Shown here in pieces: positions 128 through 20,902 of a stretch of DNA of 28,281 nucleotides (position 1 is the stretch's first letter; every line of letters begins with the position of its first letter). The notes beneath the pieces are model-generated. The model was not told where the DNA came from, searched no databases, and was given only the letters and a program-made list of their open reading frames with translations. Origin of the DNA: a virus. Both the position numbers and the translations under genes were made by a program. The DNA is taken from positions 1 to 28,281 of the IMG/VR virus record IMGVR_UViG_3300037400_002706; one strand, written 5' to 3'.

Positions 128-341
128 GCTGCGATGGTGCGACGTGGACTGCGCCGCGACCGACGCCGCCGCATGGTGCATGGGGGATGGGCTGCGGCGA
201 TACGATCCGGCGCTCTGCGCCTGGGCCACCTATGTCTCAGCCGCCTGCCGACGCGAGGCCGGGCGCATCCGCGACGACGAGGCCAGGATGGCCGAGGTCA
301 GGCGGAGACTGGCGAGGGGGGATGGGCCTCCCCCCCTATAG
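3..341 (+). CDS. 3' part of the junction-spanning ORF (starts at 28142; about 117 aa on the circle). Small Arg/Ala-rich protein, possible sigma-region-2-like late activator.
   Basis: The frame of the 93..341 track ORF is the same frame as the ATG at 28142 once the 127-bp overlap is collapsed. It sits immediately upstream of terS, where late activators are often found. The segment GLRRYDPALCAWATYVSAACRREAGR loosely resembles sigma region 2. Confidence 0.5.
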   Translation, partial: DPISRLARRCAYHSTPALRERLAEDTLRLAMAAAVALARTRRLRWCDVDCAATDAAAWCMGDGLRRYDPALCAWATYVSAACRREAGRIRDDEARMAEVRRRLARGDGPPPL

Positions 342-481
342 GTTCTTTTTCGCACCTCCGGGATTTTTTCGAGGTGTGCCCCGCCCCCGTTTTTTCTGTA
401 TAAAGAGAATTTTTGTAAATGGTTAATAAAAACATGCTTAGACAAAAACAGAAACAACCTGCAAAGCAGGTTGACCTCCTG
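342..481 (+). promoter_or_regulatory. AT-richer intergenic/leader region upstream of terS; candidate late promoter and/or cos/pac region
   Basis: Hairpin cacctc-N11-gaggtg, T-runs, hairpin cctgc-aaa-gcagg. No function is demonstrable from sequence alone. Confidence 0.3.
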
Positions 482-934
482 CGGATGCGCGTTTCCGGCT
501 CGGAGCTGGCGCGGCTGCTCGGCGTCACGCCGGCCGCCATAACGCAAGGGACTGACCAGGGACGGTTCCGGCGCGACGCGCTGGGGCGCTACACGCTCGG
601 CACCAATGTCCCGGCCTACTGCCAGGCGCTGCGCGAGGCGCAGTCCCGGCGCGAGGAGGGCGACCATCGTGCGGAGCTGGACTACTGGCGAGCCAGGAAG
701 CTCCAGCAGGATGTGCTGGAGGGACGCCAGGAAATCGCCGACCAGATAACCTCCACCATCCTCAACCGCCTCCGCCAGGCGTGCGATCGTCTGCGCCAGG
801 CGTGCGCATCCCACCCCGACGCCGCCGACGCGGTGAGGGCGCTCGCCGACGAGCTGGAGGCGCAGGGCGCGGTGGCGGTGGACGCGGCGGAAAACACGGA
901 ACCAGACAAAGAGGAGACCAATGACAGAGATTAA
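419..934 (+). CDS. terS: Terminase small subunit, Nu1-like (N-terminal HTH plus coiled coil); true start may be the ATG at 482
   Basis: MRVSGSELARLLGVTPAAITQGTDQGRF matches the Nu1-type N-terminal HTH layout. A charged coiled-coil tail follows. The gene is located just upstream of the GpA-type TerL. Confidence 0.7.
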   Translation: MVNKNMLRQKQKQPAKQVDLLRMRVSGSELARLLGVTPAAITQGTDQGRFRRDALGRYTLGTNVPAYCQALREAQSRREEGDHRAELDYWRARKLQQDVLEGRQEIADQITSTILNRLRQACDRLRQACASHPDAADAVRALADELEAQGAVAVDAAENTEPDKEETNDRD

Positions 935-1816
935 CTTCCATCTGGGCGACTGCATGGACTTCATGCGAAGCAAGCCCGACAACTACTACGACCTGGCGGT
1001 CGTGGACCCGCCCTACGGCGGGGGAGGCTCTGGCGACAGCCCTTTTCCGGCGGCGCAAGCCGCTTCGGAGGGCTGTTTAACCGCTACGGCGCAGCCGAAT
1101 GGCGAAATACCCCCCCCGAAGCGAAACCCGATGCGGACGAAAGGGAGGTTCGCAAAATACGAGCGACGGGAATTACCCCCCCCGGATCGACTGCGCGAGA
1201 ACCGGCGGGACCTGGGCGGCCAAATACTCCCGGAAGTCTGCTTCGGAGCCGGACAAGCGGATGGGCGGCGAACTACAGAATTACCCCCCCGCAGGACGGC
1301 GAGGCGCAATCCGCCTCAAGCAACATCGAGTTCTGGGACTTCGCTCCCCCGCAGGAATACTTCGACGAGCTTTTCCGGGTGTCGAGGAACCAGATTATCT
1401 GGGGCGGCAACTACTTCTCCCTGCCACCGACCCGATGCTTCCTGGTGTGGCGCAAGCTGACCATCGCGGAGACATTCACCATGGCGATGTGCGAATACGC
1501 CTGGACCAGCTTCAACGCCAACGCCAAGCTCTTCGAGTGCGCACCGCAGGGCAACGCCAGGGAGAAGCGATTCCACCCGACGCAGAAGCCCGTGAAGCTC
1601 TACACCTGGTGCCTCGGCCTCTTCGCCAAGCCCGGCGACCGGCTGCTTGACACACATGGCGGCTCAATGAGTTCCGCCGTCGCCGCGTGGCAGTTGGGGT
1701 TTGACATGGACATTTGCGAAATCAACGAGTTCTACCTCAATGAGGGTAAACGGCGCGTCGAAAGGGAGATGCGCCAGCCGACACTCAATTTCCAGGATCC
1801 GCCGTCCGATGATTGA
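921..1816 (+). CDS. DNA methyltransferase (beta-class N6A/N4C type, DPPY ... HPTQKP ... LDTHGGS) with interrupted reading frame
   Basis: N-terminus MTEINFHLGDC...DLAVVDPPYGG lies in the frame of 921. The C-terminus RVSRNQIIWGGNYF...EYAWTSF...FHPTQKPVKLY...LLDTHGGSMSS lies in the frame of 1379. I translated that second frame and it is open back to 935. The two frames meet at the G5 tract 1020-1024. Confidence 0.8.
1104..1290 (+). repeat. Four in-phase copies of AAWTAC followed by C8 (1110-1117), C8 (1176-1183), CTCCC (1227-1231) and C7 (1284-1290)
   Basis: gaaatacccccccc, gaattacccccccc, caaatactccc, gaattaccccccc. The TAC triplets lie at 1108, 1174, 1225 and 1282, so all spacings are multiples of 3. 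Confidence 0.9.
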
Positions 1817-3680
1817 CCTCCGCGCATTCTCCGCCGCCCAGACCTCCCGCGACGACATCGCCGCCTGGGACTGCGCCGCCCGCATGGTCCGCGCGTGCGC
1901 CCCTCCCCGGCGCGAACCCATCGTGGAGTGGTGCGAGCGGACCGTGGACATGAGCTACGACCTCACCGCCCACTGCTCTGGGCCGCTGCGCCTGTATCCC
2001 TACCAGCGCGAGCCGCTGGCGGCCACCGAGGACCCTGCGGTGCGCCAGATCTCGCTCATGTGGTCGCCGCGCTTGGGGAAATCGACGGTCTGGAAAATGT
2101 CGCTGCTTAAGCGCCTGCACGACGGCGGGCTGGCGGGCCTCATCGTGTATCCGTCGCTCGACCTGGGGCGCAAGACCAACCACGACACGGTGGAACCGCT
2201 GCTGCGCAGCGTGCCGAGCCTCCGCGCCGATTTGCGGCGGCGCGGGGCCATAACAAAGGACGCCTACCGCCTCCCCAGCGCCCGGAGCATTGTGTACTAC
2301 CTGGGCGGCGGCGCGCAGATCGTGAGCTACACGGCGGGCTGGGGCGTGCTGGACGAGTGCGACCAGGTGGACGTGGGCAACGAGGGCGAGGAGGGGGAAA
2401 ACATCGACCAGCTCCACGCACTGCGGCTGCGGATGCAGACCTATCCCGACCGGCTGCTCATCGCCTGCTCCAGCCCCACCACCCGGCACGGCGTGATCTA
2501 CGGCGCGTGGCGGCAGGGATCGCGGCACGTGTGGCATCTGCGGTGCCAGGGCTGCGGTGCCCTGCACCCGACCTCGCAGCTGGCGTGGCCGCTTCCGGAT
2601 GGCTCCTACGCGGGGCTGCAGTGGGTCAAGGGCGACGGCGGGCAGATCATCCCCGACAGCATCCGATGGATCTGCCCGACCTGCGGGCGGGCGCACACGG
2701 AGGACGAGGCTCCGGCCATGTCCACCTCCGGCTGCTACGTGCCGCAGTGCGAGCCCGGCGAGCACCTCAGCTACCAGGCGGGCGCGCTGGCCAATCCGTG
2801 GCTGTGGCCGTGGATGCAGGTGGCGCAGGCGCAGGAGGACGCGGTGGACACCAAGGGACGCAAGTACCTAGCCAACAACATCCTGGGGAGGCCATACGAG
2901 CCGCGCCAGGCGGCGGACACGCTCACGCAGAGCATCCCCGACGTGCTGGCGTCGCGCCAGGCGGACCCGCCCTCCGACATCCGCGCCCGGCTCGCGTGCG
3001 TGACGATGGGCATCGACCAGCAGGCCAGCGGGCTGGGGGCGCAGCACTACTACGTGTGGGCGGCGCGCGGCTGGGACGAGCAGGGCAACTCGTGGAGCCT
3101 GGGCCACGGCATGGCGCAGAGCCTCCGCGAGCTCGACGCCGCGCTCGACGCGGACTACTGCGGGCAGCGCGTGCTGCTGGCGCTCATCGACCAGGGCGGG
3201 TTCGGGGACAACGCGACCCGCACGGACCCCTGGGTGGCCGCGCGGCGGAACGTATGCTACTACAAGGGCGGCGACGCTCGGACCATCGGGCTGCGTGCCG
3301 GGCAGGCGTGGCGCATGAGCGACACCCAGCGCTATCTCGTGCTGGCGTCCGCGCTCCACTACCAGGCGCAACTGCTCGACCTCATCTACGGTCCGCCGCG
3401 TCCGGTCGGGTACGAGTGGCACCTGCCCACCGCGCCCGACCCCGCGTACGCCTCGCAGCTGGCCGCCATGCGCCCCAACCTCCGGATGCGCGACGGGCGG
3501 GGCGCGGCATTCGCAGCGTGGAGCCCCGGCAGCGAGCGCCACGACTATTTCGACACCGAGAAAATGGCGCTGGCGGCGGTGGACGTGGCCGCCGCGATGG
3601 TGCGCCCGGAGCTATGGCCGCACGGCAGGCTCCCCGCCTACATCGTCGCCGCCGCCATCCGCGACGCCCGCCGGGCGTGA
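1809..3680 (+). CDS. terL: Terminase large subunit, lambda GpA family
   Basis: YPYQREPL, SPRLGKST (Walker A-like), VLDECDQV (Walker B-like) and a CQGCG...CPTCG zinc-ribbon pair. The ATG at 1809 overlaps the methylase stop. The order Nu1-A-W-portal matches lambda. Confidence 0.85.
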   Translation: MIDLRAFSAAQTSRDDIAAWDCAARMVRACAPPRREPIVEWCERTVDMSYDLTAHCSGPLRLYPYQREPLAATEDPAVRQISLMWSPRLGKSTVWKMSLLKRLHDGGLAGLIVYPSLDLGRKTNHDTVEPLLRSVPSLRADLRRRGAITKDAYRLPSARSIVYYLGGGAQIVSYTAGWGVLDECDQVDVGNEGEEGENIDQLHALRLRMQTYPDRLLIACSSPTTRHGVIYGAWRQGSRHVWHLRCQGCGALHPTSQLAWPLPDGSYAGLQWVKGDGGQIIPDSIRWICPTCGRAHTEDEAPAMSTSGCYVPQCEPGEHLSYQAGALANPWLWPWMQVAQAQEDAVDTKGRKYLANNILGRPYEPRQAADTLTQSIPDVLASRQADPPSDIRARLACVTMGIDQQASGLGAQHYYVWAARGWDEQGNSWSLGHGMAQSLRELDAALDADYCGQRVLLALIDQGGFGDNATRTDPWVAARRNVCYYKGGDARTIGLRAGQAWRMSDTQRYLVLASALHYQAQLLDLIYGPPRPVGYEWHLPTAPDPAYASQLAAMRPNLRMRDGRGAAFAAWSPGSERHDYFDTEKMALAAVDVAAAMVRPELWPHGRLPAYIVAAAIRDARRA

Positions 3681-19667: not shown

Positions 19668-19820
19668 ATGTTCGCCGAGATCGTCACCCATTACAGCAGC
19701 AACGAGATTTTCCTCGGCCTGCTGCTGATTTTCCAGGTTTTCCCGGCGTGCGTCGGGCTGGCATACGCCACGGTCCGCCACGCAATCAGAACCCGCAAAC
19801 ACCACAAAACCAACAACTAG
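19668..19820 (+). CDS. Small membrane protein (50 aa)
   Basis: SD aggaggaccgccATG. Hydrophobic core IFLGLLLIFQVFPACVGLAYA followed by a basic tail. Confidence 0.5.
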   Translation: MFAEIVTHYSSNEIFLGLLLIFQVFPACVGLAYATVRHAIRTRKHHKTNN

Positions 19821-19831
19821 GAGACAAAACA

Positions 19832-20569
19832 ATGGCAAACAACAAACCCGCCGCTCCGACCGAGGCCGCCGCAATCGTGCCGGTCGTGCCGACCGAGATC
19901 ATGCAGGCGTTGTCCGCGATGGCGCGCTATGGCATGGAGCAGACCGAGCTTGAGGACAATTTCTGCCGCGCTATCGGCGTCGCGACCGCCGTGGCGCGTC
20001 TGCGCGAGCTGCTCAGCCCCCAGGTGATGGCTCCGATCATGCAGCTCCAGGGATCGGCGCTGGGATTCCTCGCCGACCGCGAGTATGATGTGGACACCGT
20101 GCGCACCGTGCTCATCCAGGCCGCAATCGAGGGCCTGAGCATCTACGGCAACCAGTTCAACATTTTGGGCGGGCGGATGTATATCACCAAGGGCGGCATG
20201 GCGGCCAAGCTGCGCAGACTCGCCGAGCGTCGCGGCCTGCGCCACACCATCGTGATCGATCCCCCGCGCATGGCGCAGGGCGACCGTGGCGCGATTTGCG
20301 CCGCGCACCTCACGTGGCAGCTGCGCGGCGAGGAGCCGCGCACGCAGGACCTCAACATCCCCGTGCGCGTCAATTCCGGCATGGGCGCGGACGCCATCCT
20401 GGGCAAGGCCACGCGCAAGGCGCGCGCGTGGCTCTACGAGGAGATCACCGGCAACGAGGTGCCGGAGGGAGAGGTCGGCGAGTCCGCGCCTATCGACATC
20501 ACCCCGCGCCAGGCCGCGCCAGCGGCCGCCCAGACGGCATCTCCGCTGCCGCAGCTCCAGGCCATGTAA
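19832..20569 (+). CDS. Single-strand annealing protein candidate (recombinase partnered with the exonuclease and SSB)
   Basis: SD taggagacaaaacaATG. 245 aa. Its context is an SSAP / exonuclease / SSB module. Family not assigned. Confidence 0.4.
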   Translation: MANNKPAAPTEAAAIVPVVPTEIMQALSAMARYGMEQTELEDNFCRAIGVATAVARLRELLSPQVMAPIMQLQGSALGFLADREYDVDTVRTVLIQAAIEGLSIYGNQFNILGGRMYITKGGMAAKLRRLAERRGLRHTIVIDPPRMAQGDRGAICAAHLTWQLRGEEPRTQDLNIPVRVNSGMGADAILGKATRKARAWLYEEITGNEVPEGEVGESAPIDITPRQAAPAAAQTASPLPQLQAM

Positions 20570-20611
20570 TCCCCCCCCACAACCAACCGCAAACAATTAG
20601 GAGACAAATAG

Positions 20612-20902
20612 ATGGGCAAAAAATTCATTATTCGCTGTAACCGTGCCGGAGTGTTTTTCGGCGAAATCGAAAAAATTGATGGCAATCAAGTGGTTATGAA
20701 AAATGTCCGGAAATTGTGGCATTGGCGTGGAGCCTGCGCCGTCGAGCAGCTGGCGCAGGACGGCACCGCCCGCCCAAATGATTGTGAGTTCACGGTCGTC
20801 GTGCCCACGATGACCGTGCTGGACCCCATCCAGATCATCCCCTGCACCGAGGCGGCGGCAAAATCCATTATGGCCGTGAGGGAGTGGCGCTATGAGAGAT
20901 AA
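20612..20902 (+). CDS. Conserved small phage protein of unknown function
   Basis: FIIRCNRAGVFFGEI...VVMKNVRKLWHWRGACAVEQLAQDG resembles a widespread phage family of unknown function. The segment is AT-richer. Confidence 0.55.
   Translation: MGKKFIIRCNRAGVFFGEIEKIDGNQVVMKNVRKLWHWRGACAVEQLAQDGTARPNDCEFTVVVPTMTVLDPIQIIPCTEAAAKSIMAVREWRYER

What the first reader, a model, noticed from the sequence alone, without database searches (positions are those of the whole stretch)
1081..1458. All three forward frames stay open for about 380 nt around four in-phase AAWTAC-Cn repeats and out-of-frame duplicated coding motifs
The track ORFs 921..1460 and 1099..1650, plus the 935..1816 frame, are simultaneously free of stops between 1081 and 1458. 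Inside this segment the context GAAWTAC occurs before C8 (1110-1117), C8 (1176-1183), a T-interrupted CTCCC (1227-1231) and C7 (1284-1290). The TAC triplets are spaced 66, 51 and 57 nt apart, all multiples of 3. A short motif G-G-x-[FW]-x-x-[KN]-Y is encoded four times but in three different frames: GGLFNRY ending at 1087 (frame of 1379), GRFAKY ending at 1160 (frame of 921), GGTWAAKY ending at 1227 (frame of 1099), and GWAANY ending at 1276 (frame of 1379). Length changes at any C tract would therefore swap which copies are translated without hitting an immediate stop. This looks like a frame-hopping linker rather than random decay. I know of no described equivalent, but high G+C alone lowers stop-codon frequency, so chance is not excluded.
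Basis: seen in the sequence. Interest (0 to 1): 0.65.

Follow-up and report, generated by a model that had tools for sequence, protein, structure and literature searches.

The report
Phase-variable phage DNA methyltransferase linker
The region is the flexible linker of a phage DNA methyltransferase gene that carries three slippage-prone runs of C, so the gene appears to switch on and off by gaining or losing single bases; in this copy it is switched off.

Summary
The 379-nt stretch open in all three frames is not unusual: it is only the 8th longest on this strand, and composition-matched simulations give a mean longest stretch of 328 nt.

What is real is a beta-class (PF01555) DNA methyltransferase gene lying between terS and terL. 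Its catalytic N-domain (DPPY) is in frame 0 and its C-domain is in frame 2. They are joined by a ~290-nt linker, predicted disordered, that holds three GAAWTAC-C7/8 tracts (expected 0.06).

Nine alleles from different rumen samples show eight different tract-length combinations (tract 1: 8-10; tract 2: 7-9; tract 3: 7-12). Flanking DNA is nearly identical.

In silico, exactly one third of length combinations give a full-length enzyme, in nine linker isoforms. This allele (8/8/7) is OFF, and a single extra C in any tract restores the ORF.

Both domains are under purifying selection (dN/dS 0.03-0.2).

Across 139 relatives, 45% are out of frame in the linker, against 2 of 132 in a control segment. 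With a G/C run of 7 or more, 69% are out of frame.

Best reading: a multi-tract contingency locus, i.e. slipped-strand phase variation. This is a known mechanism in a little-described phage setting.

The parts
419..934 (+). Terminase small subunit-like gene. Its stop codon overlaps the methyltransferase start by 14 nt.
   Evidence: phrog_57 terminase small subunit, E 2.3e-7; ORF listed.
921..1034 (+). Methyltransferase N-domain in frame 0 (start ATG at 921). It contains catalytic motif IV, DPPY, at 1005-1016, followed by GGGG.
   Evidence: Translation. 89-91% identical to the intact 284-aa protein P0001. AF2 pLDDT above 90 for residues 1-33 of P0001. dN/dS 0.03-0.15 against relatives.
1035..1327 (+). 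Linker inserted after DPPY. It is built of degenerate copies of the G-G-x-[FW]-x-x-[KRN]-Y family motif, has no stop in any forward frame, and is predicted disordered.
   Evidence: for the frames; pLDDT 32-53 for residues 34-131 of P0001; family motifs RFGGRFxxY and RTGGTWAxKY; diverges faster than the domains in more distant relatives.
1104..1117 (+). Repeat 1: GAAATAC followed by a C tract (C8 at 1110-1117). Slippage tract 1.
   Evidence: Length is 8, 9 or 10 in other samples and the tract is absent in L002 and L121.
1170..1183 (+). Repeat 2: GAATTAC followed by a C tract (C8 at 1176-1183). Slippage tract 2.
   Evidence: Length is 7, 8 or 9 in other samples. In the intact L002 allele it is interrupted as C8-T-C.
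1221..1231 (+). Degenerate copy CAAATACTCCC. It codes the K-Y-S-R that ends the conserved RTGGTWAAKY motif (frame 1). It is not a slippage tract.
   Evidence: Invariant in the alignment of close relatives.
1278..1290 (+). Repeat 3: GAATTAC followed by a C tract (C7 at 1284-1290).
   Evidence: Length is 7, 8, 9, 10, 11 or 12 in other samples.
1458..1460 (+). TGA that ends the frame-0 reading in this allele. The product is a 179-aa truncated protein lacking the C-domain, i.e. the OFF state.
1328..1816 (+). Methyltransferase C-domain in frame 2. It contains EFWDFAPPQEYF, IIWGGNYF (1394-1417), HPTQKP (1574-1591) and the AdoMet motif LLDTHGGSMSS (1643-1675). The stop is at 1814-1816 and overlaps the terL ATG at 1809.
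   Evidence: PF01555 hit, E 2.8e-7. Translation. Profile matches to beta-class structures CcrM, DpnA, M.MboIIA and M.RsrI. dN/dS 0.12-0.21. pLDDT above 90.
1809..3680 (+). Terminase large subunit (gpA type), immediately downstream and overlapping the methyltransferase stop by 8 nt.
   Evidence: PF05876, E 9.6e-26, and PF20454, E 5.6e-12. The same terS-MTase-terL order occurs in relative L121.

Best explanation
The finding lies inside a phage-encoded orphan DNA methyltransferase gene (beta-class, PF01555, annotated in relatives as N6-adenine specific), located between terS and terL.

A ~100-residue linker, predicted disordered, is inserted directly after the catalytic DPPY motif. It carries three poly-C tracts, each preceded by GAAWTAC. 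These tracts gain and lose C residues by slipped-strand mispairing during replication. Each change shifts the reading frame of everything downstream.

The linker has no stop codon in any frame. The outcome therefore depends only on the summed tract length modulo 3. One third of configurations join the N-domain to the C-domain and give a full-length enzyme, in one of nine linker isoforms. Two thirds give a truncated, catalytically useless product.

The allele in the window (C8/C8/C7) is OFF: a 179-aa product ending at 1460. One extra C in any of the three tracts would turn it ON.

The likely benefit is bet-hedging. Progeny phage DNA is either methylated, and so protected from restriction enzymes, or unmethylated, and so invisible to methylation-dependent nucleases.

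Shown here: tract polymorphism between samples; the frame logic; purifying selection on both domains; confinement of the homopolymers to the linker; the family-wide pattern.

Inferred, not shown: that switching is rapid and reversible within a lineage; that ON alleles methylate DNA; that switching is adaptive.
For: 1. Identity and frames. Reading frame 0, then +1 at tract 2, then +1 at tract 3 gives a protein 89-91% identical over its full length to the intact database protein P0001. Pfam and PDB profile matches are all to beta-class amino-methyltransferases.

2. Hypermutable tracts. Nine fully typed three-tract alleles from different samples give eight length combinations:
- (8,8,7) window
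- (8,9,7) X13
- (9,8,8) X5
- (10,9,12) X4
- (9,9,10) X3
- (10,8,10) X2 and L004
- (10,8,11) L003
- (10,7,10) X26
The rest of linker segments B-D differs by only 0-5%. X4 and X5 share every flanking SNP yet differ at all three tracts. Unitigs break at the tracts in several runs, and one run also carries a 171-nt deletion joining tract 1 to tract 3.

3. Switch logic. Of 729 simulated length combinations, 243 (exactly 1/3) are full length, in nine frame classes. Any single +1C restores the ORF. Two of the nine natural alleles are ON.

4. Not a decaying pseudogene. dN/dS is 0.03-0.26 for the N-domain and 0.12-0.21 for the C-domain, including comparisons with out-of-frame relatives.

5. The homopolymers are not a by-product of proline coding. 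None of 37 Pro-Pro dipeptides in other window genes uses CCCCCC, and CCG is the preferred codon at 48%.

6. The linker tolerates any sequence. AF2 pLDDT is 32-53 across residues 34-131, against above 90 in both domains.

7. Family-wide pattern. Of 139 distinct relatives, 62 are out of frame in the linker, against 2 of 132 in a C-domain control segment. With a G/C run of 7 or more, 69% are out of frame, close to the 2/3 expected for a freely switching tract. Without such a run, 17% are (Fisher p = 4e-10). The result was replicated in an independent set of 52 loci (70% against 26%). G/C runs of 7 or more occur at 3.1 per kb in linkers against 0.046 per kb elsewhere in the same loci, a 68-fold difference.
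Against: - No raw reads were available, only assembler contigs. Length heterogeneity within one population, and hence switching rate and reversibility, was not measured directly.
- ON/OFF calls for the run-derived alleles rest on the reported indel tables.
- Only 2 of 9 three-tract alleles are ON. The frequency of out-of-frame alleles equals the neutral expectation, so there is no sign of selection for the ON state at sampling time.
- A clade of relatives (L026, L040, L041, L095) is out of frame with no homopolymer at all, which slippage cannot explain.
- Methyltransferase activity and target site are untested.
Confidence: 0.7

Rival explanations
1. Recoding rather than, or in addition to, a DNA switch. 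Ribosomes shift +1 on the CCC-CCC-C runs (tRNA-Pro slippage at a poly-proline stall), or RNA polymerase slips on the C tracts. 'OFF' genotypes would then still yield some full-length enzyme, and tract length would be under little selection.
For: - The window allele needs exactly two +1 shifts, both at GAATTAC-C(n) sites, to reproduce the P0001 reading.
- Four of nine alleles have GGTWAAKY in frame with the N-domain. Three of those carry C10 at tract 3, where a +1 shift on CCC-G would complete the protein.
- In most relatives inspected in detail, the frames run f, f+1, f+2.
- Out-of-frame frequency equals the neutral 2/3, yet the domains are under purifying selection.
- The homopolymer-free L026 clade has a conserved GGC-GGC-GGG-TAG at the first frame break.
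- That CCC-N sites are prone to +1 slippage of tRNA-Pro is established knowledge, not tested here.
Against: - Tract lengths vary from 7 to 12 and are not conserved modulo 3.
- The shift needed differs between alleles: +1, -1 or none. For example L003 needs -1 at tract 3.
- Intact alleles exist in which a tract is interrupted and in frame (L002, C8-T-C).
- No conserved stimulatory element was found, and no Rfam match.
- Substitution patterns in the L026 clade do not single out one frame for the middle segment.
Confidence: 0.12
2. A non-adaptive mutational hot spot. The homopolymers are tolerated low-complexity sequence in a dispensable accessory gene, and the window copy is simply a recently inactivated pseudogene. 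There is no selected switching function.
For: - Most natural alleles are OFF (7 of 9; 69% of tract-bearing relatives), exactly the neutral expectation.
- The linker evolves fast, with frequent indels and rearrangements.
- Phage methyltransferases are accessory genes.
Against: - dN/dS of 0.03-0.2 in both domains, including between out-of-frame alleles.
- Almost no frame breaks outside the linker (2 of 132).
- 68-fold enrichment of long G/C runs in the linker.
- CCCCCC is avoided for Pro-Pro elsewhere in the genome.
- ATAC-C(n) tracts are retained in relatives only 50-62% identical (L084, L122).
Confidence: 0.13
3. A sequencing or assembly artefact. Homopolymer miscalls create apparent frameshifts in an intact gene.
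For: Homopolymers of 8 or more are error-prone on several platforms. Only contigs, not reads, could be inspected.
Against: - Independent assemblers and studies give lengths from 7 to 12 at the same tract, at 19-32x depth.
- The differences far exceed +/-1.
- The other 18 long G/C runs in the same loci, and the C-domain control, do not show a comparable excess of frame breaks.
- The other genes of the window are intact.
Confidence: 0.05

Closest known systems
Phase-variable DNA methyltransferases of bacterial restriction-modification systems (phasevarions). Examples: Type III mod genes with simple sequence repeats, and homopolymer-G tracts in Helicobacter and Campylobacter methyltransferases such as cj0031.
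   Same: A simple repeat inside the methyltransferase ORF changes length by slipped-strand mispairing and toggles production of full-length enzyme. Alleles in nature are a mixture of ON and OFF.
   Different: Here the gene is an orphan, small beta-class enzyme carried by a phage between terS and terL, with no restriction partner. It has three independent tracts sitting in a disordered, stop-free linker just after the catalytic DPPY motif. ON states therefore come in nine linker isoforms, and any one tract can rescue the frame.
Bpm (bbp30), the adenine methylase of Bordetella phage BPP-1, which carries a polyG tract
   Same: A phage-encoded DPPY-first (beta-class) adenine methyltransferase with a G/C homopolymer inside the ORF. 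G8 was found at nt 585-592 of the gene. PMC12633550 mentions it as a polyG tract in a phage methylase.
   Different: It has only ~27-29% local identity to P0001. It has a single tract, placed just before AdoMet motif I in the folded domain. It has no repeat-built linker, and its variation was noted but not studied.
Hypermutable homopolymers in other phage genes: polyG tracts in Campylobacter Fletchervirus receptor-binding proteins (Sorensen et al. 2021, cited in PMC12633550 and PMC12823448), and contingency loci in T2/T4 (preprint PMC12633550)
   Same: Homopolymer slippage in a phage genome creates mixed ON/OFF progeny, interpreted as bet-hedging against host defences.
   Different: Those cases concern receptor-binding and other genes of cultured phages, with single tracts. 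This one is a DNA-modification gene in uncultured rumen and gut phages, with multiple tracts, and the feature is shared by an entire protein family.
Programmed +1 ribosomal frameshifting (the prfB type, and tRNA-Pro slippage at CCC-N)
   Same: The shifts needed in the window allele are +1 and lie on CCC runs that encode poly-proline, a known stalling and slippery context.
   Different: The defining conservation of site and direction is absent: tract length and the required shift vary between alleles.

Membership tests
Beta-class N6-adenine/N4-cytosine DNA methyltransferase (Pfam PF01555 N6_N4_Mtase) | Catalytic motif IV (D/S-P-P-Y/F) near the N-terminus | tested here: met
   DPPY at 1005-1016 in frame 0. 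Invariant in the 79-sequence alignment.
Beta-class N6-adenine/N4-cytosine DNA methyltransferase (Pfam PF01555 N6_N4_Mtase) | AdoMet-binding motif I region C-terminal to motif IV (the beta permutation), recognised by the family profile | tested here: met
   PF01555 hit at 31.1 bits against a cut-off of 26.7, on the frame-2 translation. The family profile matches CcrM, DpnA, M.MboIIA, M.RsrI and M.PvuII chains.
Beta-class N6-adenine/N4-cytosine DNA methyltransferase (Pfam PF01555 N6_N4_Mtase) | Both halves encoded in one uninterrupted reading frame | tested here: not met
   The N-domain is in frame 0 and the C-domain in frame 2. The frame-0 ORF stops at 1458-1460. This allele is a member by descent, but as written it does not encode the enzyme.
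Beta-class N6-adenine/N4-cytosine DNA methyltransferase (Pfam PF01555 N6_N4_Mtase) | Methyl transfer to DNA at a defined target sequence | not testable with these tools
   Needs expression and a methylome readout.
Simple-sequence-repeat contingency locus (slipped-strand phase variation) | A homopolymer or short tandem repeat of mutable length (about 7 or more) inside the ORF or promoter | tested here: met
   C8, C8 and C7 inside the ORF.
Simple-sequence-repeat contingency locus (slipped-strand phase variation) | Repeat length is polymorphic among otherwise near-identical sequences | tested here: met
   Eight length combinations in nine alleles. X4 and X5 have identical flanking SNPs.
Simple-sequence-repeat contingency locus (slipped-strand phase variation) | Length changes switch between full-length and truncated product | tested here: met
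   In-silico enumeration: 1/3 of combinations are ON, and a single +1C rescues the ORF. Natural ON alleles: L002, L121, X13 and X26.
Simple-sequence-repeat contingency locus (slipped-strand phase variation) | High-frequency, reversible switching within a clonal lineage | not testable with these tools
   All runs holding the sequence are kept as contigs only. Unitig breaks and co-existing variants at the tracts in run X2 are suggestive at most.
Simple-sequence-repeat contingency locus (slipped-strand phase variation) | The rest of the gene is maintained by purifying selection | tested here: met
   dN/dS 0.03-0.26. Frame breaks in the C-domain control: 2 of 132.
Programmed ribosomal frameshift site | Slippery site and required shift conserved among homologues | tested here: not met
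   Tract lengths range from 7 to 12. The required shift is +1, -1 or 0, depending on the allele.
Programmed ribosomal frameshift site | Trans-frame protein product made from one mRNA sequence | not testable with these tools
   Needs proteomics or reporter assays.
Phasevarion (phase-variable methyltransferase of a restriction-modification system) | The methyltransferase is part of a Type I or Type III R-M locus of a bacterial chromosome | tested here: not met
   The neighbours are terS, terL, a lambda-family portal and a head protease. Relatives sit beside dUTPase, PAPS reductase or RNA ligase genes in phage-like contigs.

The most novel reading that the evidence does not exclude
This whole family of phage methyltransferases may be decoded by recoding rather than only by DNA slippage. 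That would mean +1 shifts at poly-Pro or poly-Gly homopolymers, by ribosomal or transcriptional slippage.

In the homopolymer-free clade (L026, L040, L041, L095) it would mean a conserved event at GGC-GGC-GGG-TAG, either a +1 frameshift or a gene-60-like take-off next to a stop codon. Genotypically 'broken' genes would then still make enzyme.

This would explain why about two thirds of tract-bearing alleles are out of frame although both domains are under purifying selection.
Probability: 0.12. Interest if true: 0.8.

Novelty: new variant of a known kind. Interest (0 to 1): 0.5.

Why it matters
Phage-encoded orphan methyltransferases decide whether phage DNA survives host restriction or is instead targeted by methylation-dependent nucleases. 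Prophage methyltransferases can also reprogramme host gene expression.

A heritable but reversible ON/OFF switch in such a gene would give every burst a mixture of methylated and unmethylated genomes. That is a bet-hedging strategy documented for bacterial methyltransferases but hardly at all for phages.

The evidence here suggests it is not a one-off:
- About half of 139 related genes from gut and rumen phages are out of frame in the same linker.
- Long G/C runs are 68-fold concentrated in that linker.

There is also a practical consequence. Automated annotation will split or miss these genes, and methylome or host-range predictions from metagenomic phage genomes will be wrong unless the tract state is considered.

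Tried and rejected
- Self-splicing intron or other structured RNA in the ~290-nt insertion. Rfam at permissive E-value found nothing in 300-2200, and intact homologues translate straight through the region. Rejected.
- GAAWTAC-C(n) repeats as terminase (pac/cos) binding sites, given the terS-terL position. Close relatives carry the same linker in a quite different context (dUTPase-PAPS reductase-MTase), and the repeats track the MTase gene. Rejected as the primary explanation.
- Special statistical status of the triple-open frame. Rejected by scanning the window and by simulation.
- Multi-frame purifying selection on the linker, with all three frames constrained. The linker is almost identical to L002-L004 but diverges by 22-46% from the next relatives, more than the domains do (14-17%). 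The near-identity is therefore recent exchange, not constraint. Rejected.
- Read-level tract distributions. Every run holding the sequence, including the candidate RNA runs, is stored as contigs only. Contig comparisons were used instead.
- Runs X28-X31 hold the packaging genes but not this linker.
- Closer relatives in cultured phages. None is above 50% identity.
- Frame assignment of the middle segment in the L026 clade by synonymous versus non-synonymous counts. Inconclusive with four distinct sequences. A further IMG/VR scan found no additional members of that clade.
Full report
**What is in the sequence**

The window is high-G+C DNA (about 67%) with the head-packaging module of a tailed phage. 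It encodes:
- a terminase small subunit-like gene (419-934; phrog_57);
- a DNA methyltransferase (921-1816);
- a gpA-type terminase large subunit (1809-3680);
- a lambda-family portal and a head maturation protease.

The runs that contain it are bovine and sheep gut or rumen metagenomes.

The finding lies inside the methyltransferase gene.
- Stops flank the region at 1078-1080 (frame of 1099) and 1458-1460 (frame of 921).
- C8, C8 and C7 lie at 1110-1117, 1176-1183 and 1284-1290.
- TAC triplets lie at 1108, 1174, 1225 and 1282.
- The four G-G-x-[FW]-x-x-[KN]-Y-like peptides sit in three frames.

**What is and is not beyond chance**

The 379-nt stretch open in all three frames is ordinary here. 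Seven longer ones, up to 622 nt, occur on the same strand of the window. First-order Markov simulations of 28 kb give a mean longest stretch of 328 nt and a 95th percentile of 438.

The repeats are not ordinary:
- GAAWTAC-C7 occurs three times, only here, against 0.06 expected.
- Every C run of 7 or more inside a coding region of the window is in this linker.
- In 20 other genes of the window, none of 37 Pro-Pro dipeptides is written CCCCCC. CCG is the preferred proline codon.

**What the gene is**

- Frame 0 from ATG 921 encodes MTEINFHLGDCMDFMRSKPDNYYDLAVVDPPYGGGG. This is the N-terminal strand-helix-strand and catalytic motif IV of a beta-class amino-methyltransferase.
- Frame 2 from about 1328 encodes EFWDFAPPQEYFDELFRVSRNQIIWGGNYF...HPTQKP...LLDTHGGSMSS, the remainder of the fold with the AdoMet site.
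- A profile of the family matches CcrM, DpnA, M.MboIIA, M.RsrI and N4-cytosine methyltransferase structures.

I read frame 0 to tract 2, shifted +1 into frame 1 to tract 3, then shifted +1 into frame 2. The result is 89-91% identical over its full length to an intact 284-residue database protein, P0001. It is 77-81% identical to P0002, whose contig has the same terS-MTase-terL order.

The window gene is therefore a methyltransferase whose two halves are out of register. As written it ends at 1460 after 179 residues, without the C-domain.

**The linker**

About 290 nt (1035-1327) lie between DPPYGGGG and the conserved W-D. Short-linker relatives such as Rhizobium phage 16-3 p097 have some 20 residues there.

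In the wider family this segment holds one or more copies of RFGG[RL]FxxY and RTGGTWAxKY. The window's four 'motifs' are such copies:
- In frame 1, the stretch from tract 1 to tract 3 reads as three consecutive units ending in [KN]-Y-P-P. That accounts for the in-phase TAC spacing.
- GWAANY is a 49-nt-offset DNA duplicate of the GGTWAAKY unit (family D11).
- SRFGGLFNRY is read in frame with DPPY in relatives L124 and L045-L047, but not in the window lineage.

AlphaFold2 with a 79-sequence alignment gives pLDDT above 90 for residues 1-33 and 133-284 of P0001. It gives 32-53 for the linker (residues 34-131), which is therefore predicted disordered. That fits a segment whose exact sequence matters little.

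**Tract lengths vary in nature**

Aligning the window with three close relatives, and laying contigs of public runs on the linker, gave nine fully typed three-tract alleles:

| Source | Tract 1 | Tract 2 | Tract 3 |
|---|---|---|---|
| window / X1 | 8 | 8 | 7 |
| X13 | 8 | 9 | 7 |
| X5 | 9 | 8 | 8 |
| X4 | 10 | 9 | 12 |
| X3 | 9 | 9 | 10 |
| X2 | 10 | 8 | 10 |
| L004 | 10 | 8 | 10 |
| L003 | 10 | 8 | 11 |
| X26 | 10 | 7 | 10 |

- That is eight combinations in nine samples, while the remaining linker DNA differs by 0-5%.
- X4 and X5 come from one study and share every flanking SNP, yet differ at all three tracts at 19-29x depth.
- In several runs the unitigs end at the tracts.
- Run X2 also contains a form in which tract 1 is fused to tract 3, a 171-nt deletion.
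- The intact alleles L002 and L121 lack tract 1. L002 has tract 2 interrupted as C8-T-C.

Raw reads were not available for any run, so heterogeneity within one population could not be measured.

**The switch logic**

I rebuilt the gene with every tract length from 5 to 13.
- Exactly 243 of 729 combinations give a full-length ORF of 297-299 residues.
- These fall into nine frame classes, i.e. nine linker isoforms. Only some of them contain GGTWAAKY.
- The (8,8,7) allele is OFF.
- C9 at tract 1, C9 at tract 2, or C8 at tract 3 each restores the ORF.
- Of the nine natural three-tract alleles, X13 and X26 are ON.

**Not decay**

Against relatives, including out-of-frame ones, dN/dS is 0.03-0.26 for the N-domain and 0.12-0.21 for the C-domain. 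One comparison, L124, was spoiled by an indel. Both halves are therefore kept functional, which requires that they are at least sometimes joined.

**The family**

| Measure | First set | Independent IMG/VR set | Pooled |
|---|---|---|---|
| Distinct loci | 87 | 52 | 139 |
| DPPY and IIWGGNY in different frames | 34 | 28 | 62 (45%) |
| Frame break between IIWGGNY and HPTQKP (control) | 2 of 82 | 0 of 50 | 2 of 132 |
| Out of frame, G/C run of 7 or more in linker | 68% | 70% | 69% |
| Out of frame, no such run | 13% | 26% | 17% |
| Fisher p | 1.7e-7 | 0.004 | 4e-10 |

- The first set came from IMG/VR, GTDB genomes and JGI metagenomes.
- The 69% figure equals the two thirds expected if tract length is free to wander.
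- G/C runs of 7 or more occur at 3.1 per kb in the linkers and 0.046 per kb elsewhere in the same loci, a 68-fold difference.
- Most relatives use G runs (Gly-Gly-Gly). The window's clade uses C runs (Pro-Pro-Pro).

**Interpretation**

The best-supported reading is a multi-tract contingency locus: slipped-strand changes in three poly-C tracts toggle a phage orphan methyltransferase. This is the mechanism known from bacterial phasevarions.

For phages the precedents are sparse:
- I confirmed a G8 tract in the Bpm adenine methylase of Bordetella phage BPP-1, though at another position in the protein. It is mentioned in PMC12633550.
- PolyG tracts occur in Campylobacter phage receptor-binding proteins.
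- A 2025 preprint reports contingency loci in T2/T4.
- A 2026 review of prokaryotic methyltransferases lists no phase-variable phage enzyme.

I therefore rate it a new variant of a known kind. What is new is a phage orphan enzyme, three tracts in one disordered stop-free linker, and a feature shared by a whole family of gut and rumen phage genes.

**Rivals**

- Recoding (+1 slippage of tRNA-Pro on CCC runs, or transcriptional slippage) cannot be excluded as a contributor. It would explain the neutral-looking frame distribution. However, tract length and the required shift are not conserved.
- A non-adaptive hot spot is argued against by the enrichment, the codon choice and the purifying selection.
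- Assembly error is argued against by the 7-12 range across independent assemblies and by the clean control segment.

**Open point**

Four distinct sequences (L026, L040, L041, L095) share two frame breaks with no homopolymer. The first is at a fully conserved GGC-GGC-GGG-TAG. Their C-domain still shows mostly synonymous change. Slippage does not explain these, so they are the best place to look for true recoding in this family.

Noticed in passing
L005-L205 (relatives); window 1035-1327 for comparison: The frame break is a family trait. Of 139 distinct related methyltransferase loci, 62 have the DPPY and IIWGGNY motifs in different frames, against 2 of 132 with a break in the C-domain. 69% are out of frame when the linker has a G/C run of 7 or more. 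Such runs are 68-fold enriched in the linker.
   Followed up: yes
L026:3085-3360, L040:3079-3355, L041:3085-3360, L095 (same layout): A clade of relatives (about 90% identical to each other, from Limiplasma and Oscillospiraceae MAGs and IMG/VR contigs) shares two frame breaks with no homopolymer. The N-domain frame ends at a fully conserved GGC-GGC-GGG-TAG, RFGGLFDRY lies in the next frame, and RTGGTWASKY plus the C-domain lie in the third. The C-domain changes are mostly synonymous (65 against 15). This is a candidate for genuine recoding and remains unresolved.
   Followed up: partly
linker homopolymers in window, L002-L124: Read on the C-rich strand, 37 of 63 linker homopolymers are immediately preceded by TA (TAC-Cn, or Gn-GTA on the coding strand). 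This holds whether the coding strand carries the C run or the G run. Only 4 of 18 runs elsewhere in the same loci show it. The cause may be adjacent Tyr or Thr codons, or a DNA-level preference; it is not explained.
   Followed up: partly
window 1112-1284 (run X2): One rumen run contains a 47-nt unitig that joins tract 1 directly to tract 3, skipping 171 nt, alongside full-length forms. This suggests recombination or slippage between the GAAWTAC-Cn repeats in addition to single-base slippage.
   Followed up: no
window 921-934 and 1809-1816: The methyltransferase start overlaps the terS stop by 14 nt. Its stop (1814-1816) overlaps the terL start (ATG 1809) as ATGATTGA. In OFF alleles, ribosomes terminate about 350 nt upstream at 1460, so the tract state might also modulate translational coupling into terL. 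This is speculative. Close relatives L002-L004 carry the gene in another context.
   Followed up: no
window 1118-1327 vs 1328-1813; L002, L003, L004: Mosaicism. Linker segments B-D of the window differ by 0-5% from L002-L004 while the C-domain differs by 12-13%. Those relatives carry the gene next to dUTPase and PAPS reductase genes rather than terminase genes. This indicates recent exchange of parts of the gene between different phages.
   Followed up: partly
window 20571-20578: The only other C8 tract in the window sits immediately after the TAA stop of ORF 19748-20569, in an intergenic spacer ahead of an A+T-richer gene starting at 20613. It could serve as an internal control homopolymer, or it could affect expression of the downstream gene.
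   Followed up: no
L121:2298-4010: In the relative with the same terS-MTase-terL order, the gpA terminase gene is called as two ORFs (152 aa and 410 aa). This is a possible frame break or insertion in terL of that contig.
   Followed up: no
L017:2800-2900: In this relative the frame change between RFGGRFDRY and NRFGTWFDRY falls in a stretch with three copies of CCGGTAC and no homopolymer at the break. The G8 and G10 tracts of that linker are in frame.
   Followed up: no
window 315-350: A G6/C7 hairpin (AGGGGGGA...TCCCCCCCT) followed by a T-rich run lies at the end of the upstream ORF (93-341). It looks like an intrinsic terminator just ahead of the terS-MTase-terL block.
   Followed up: no
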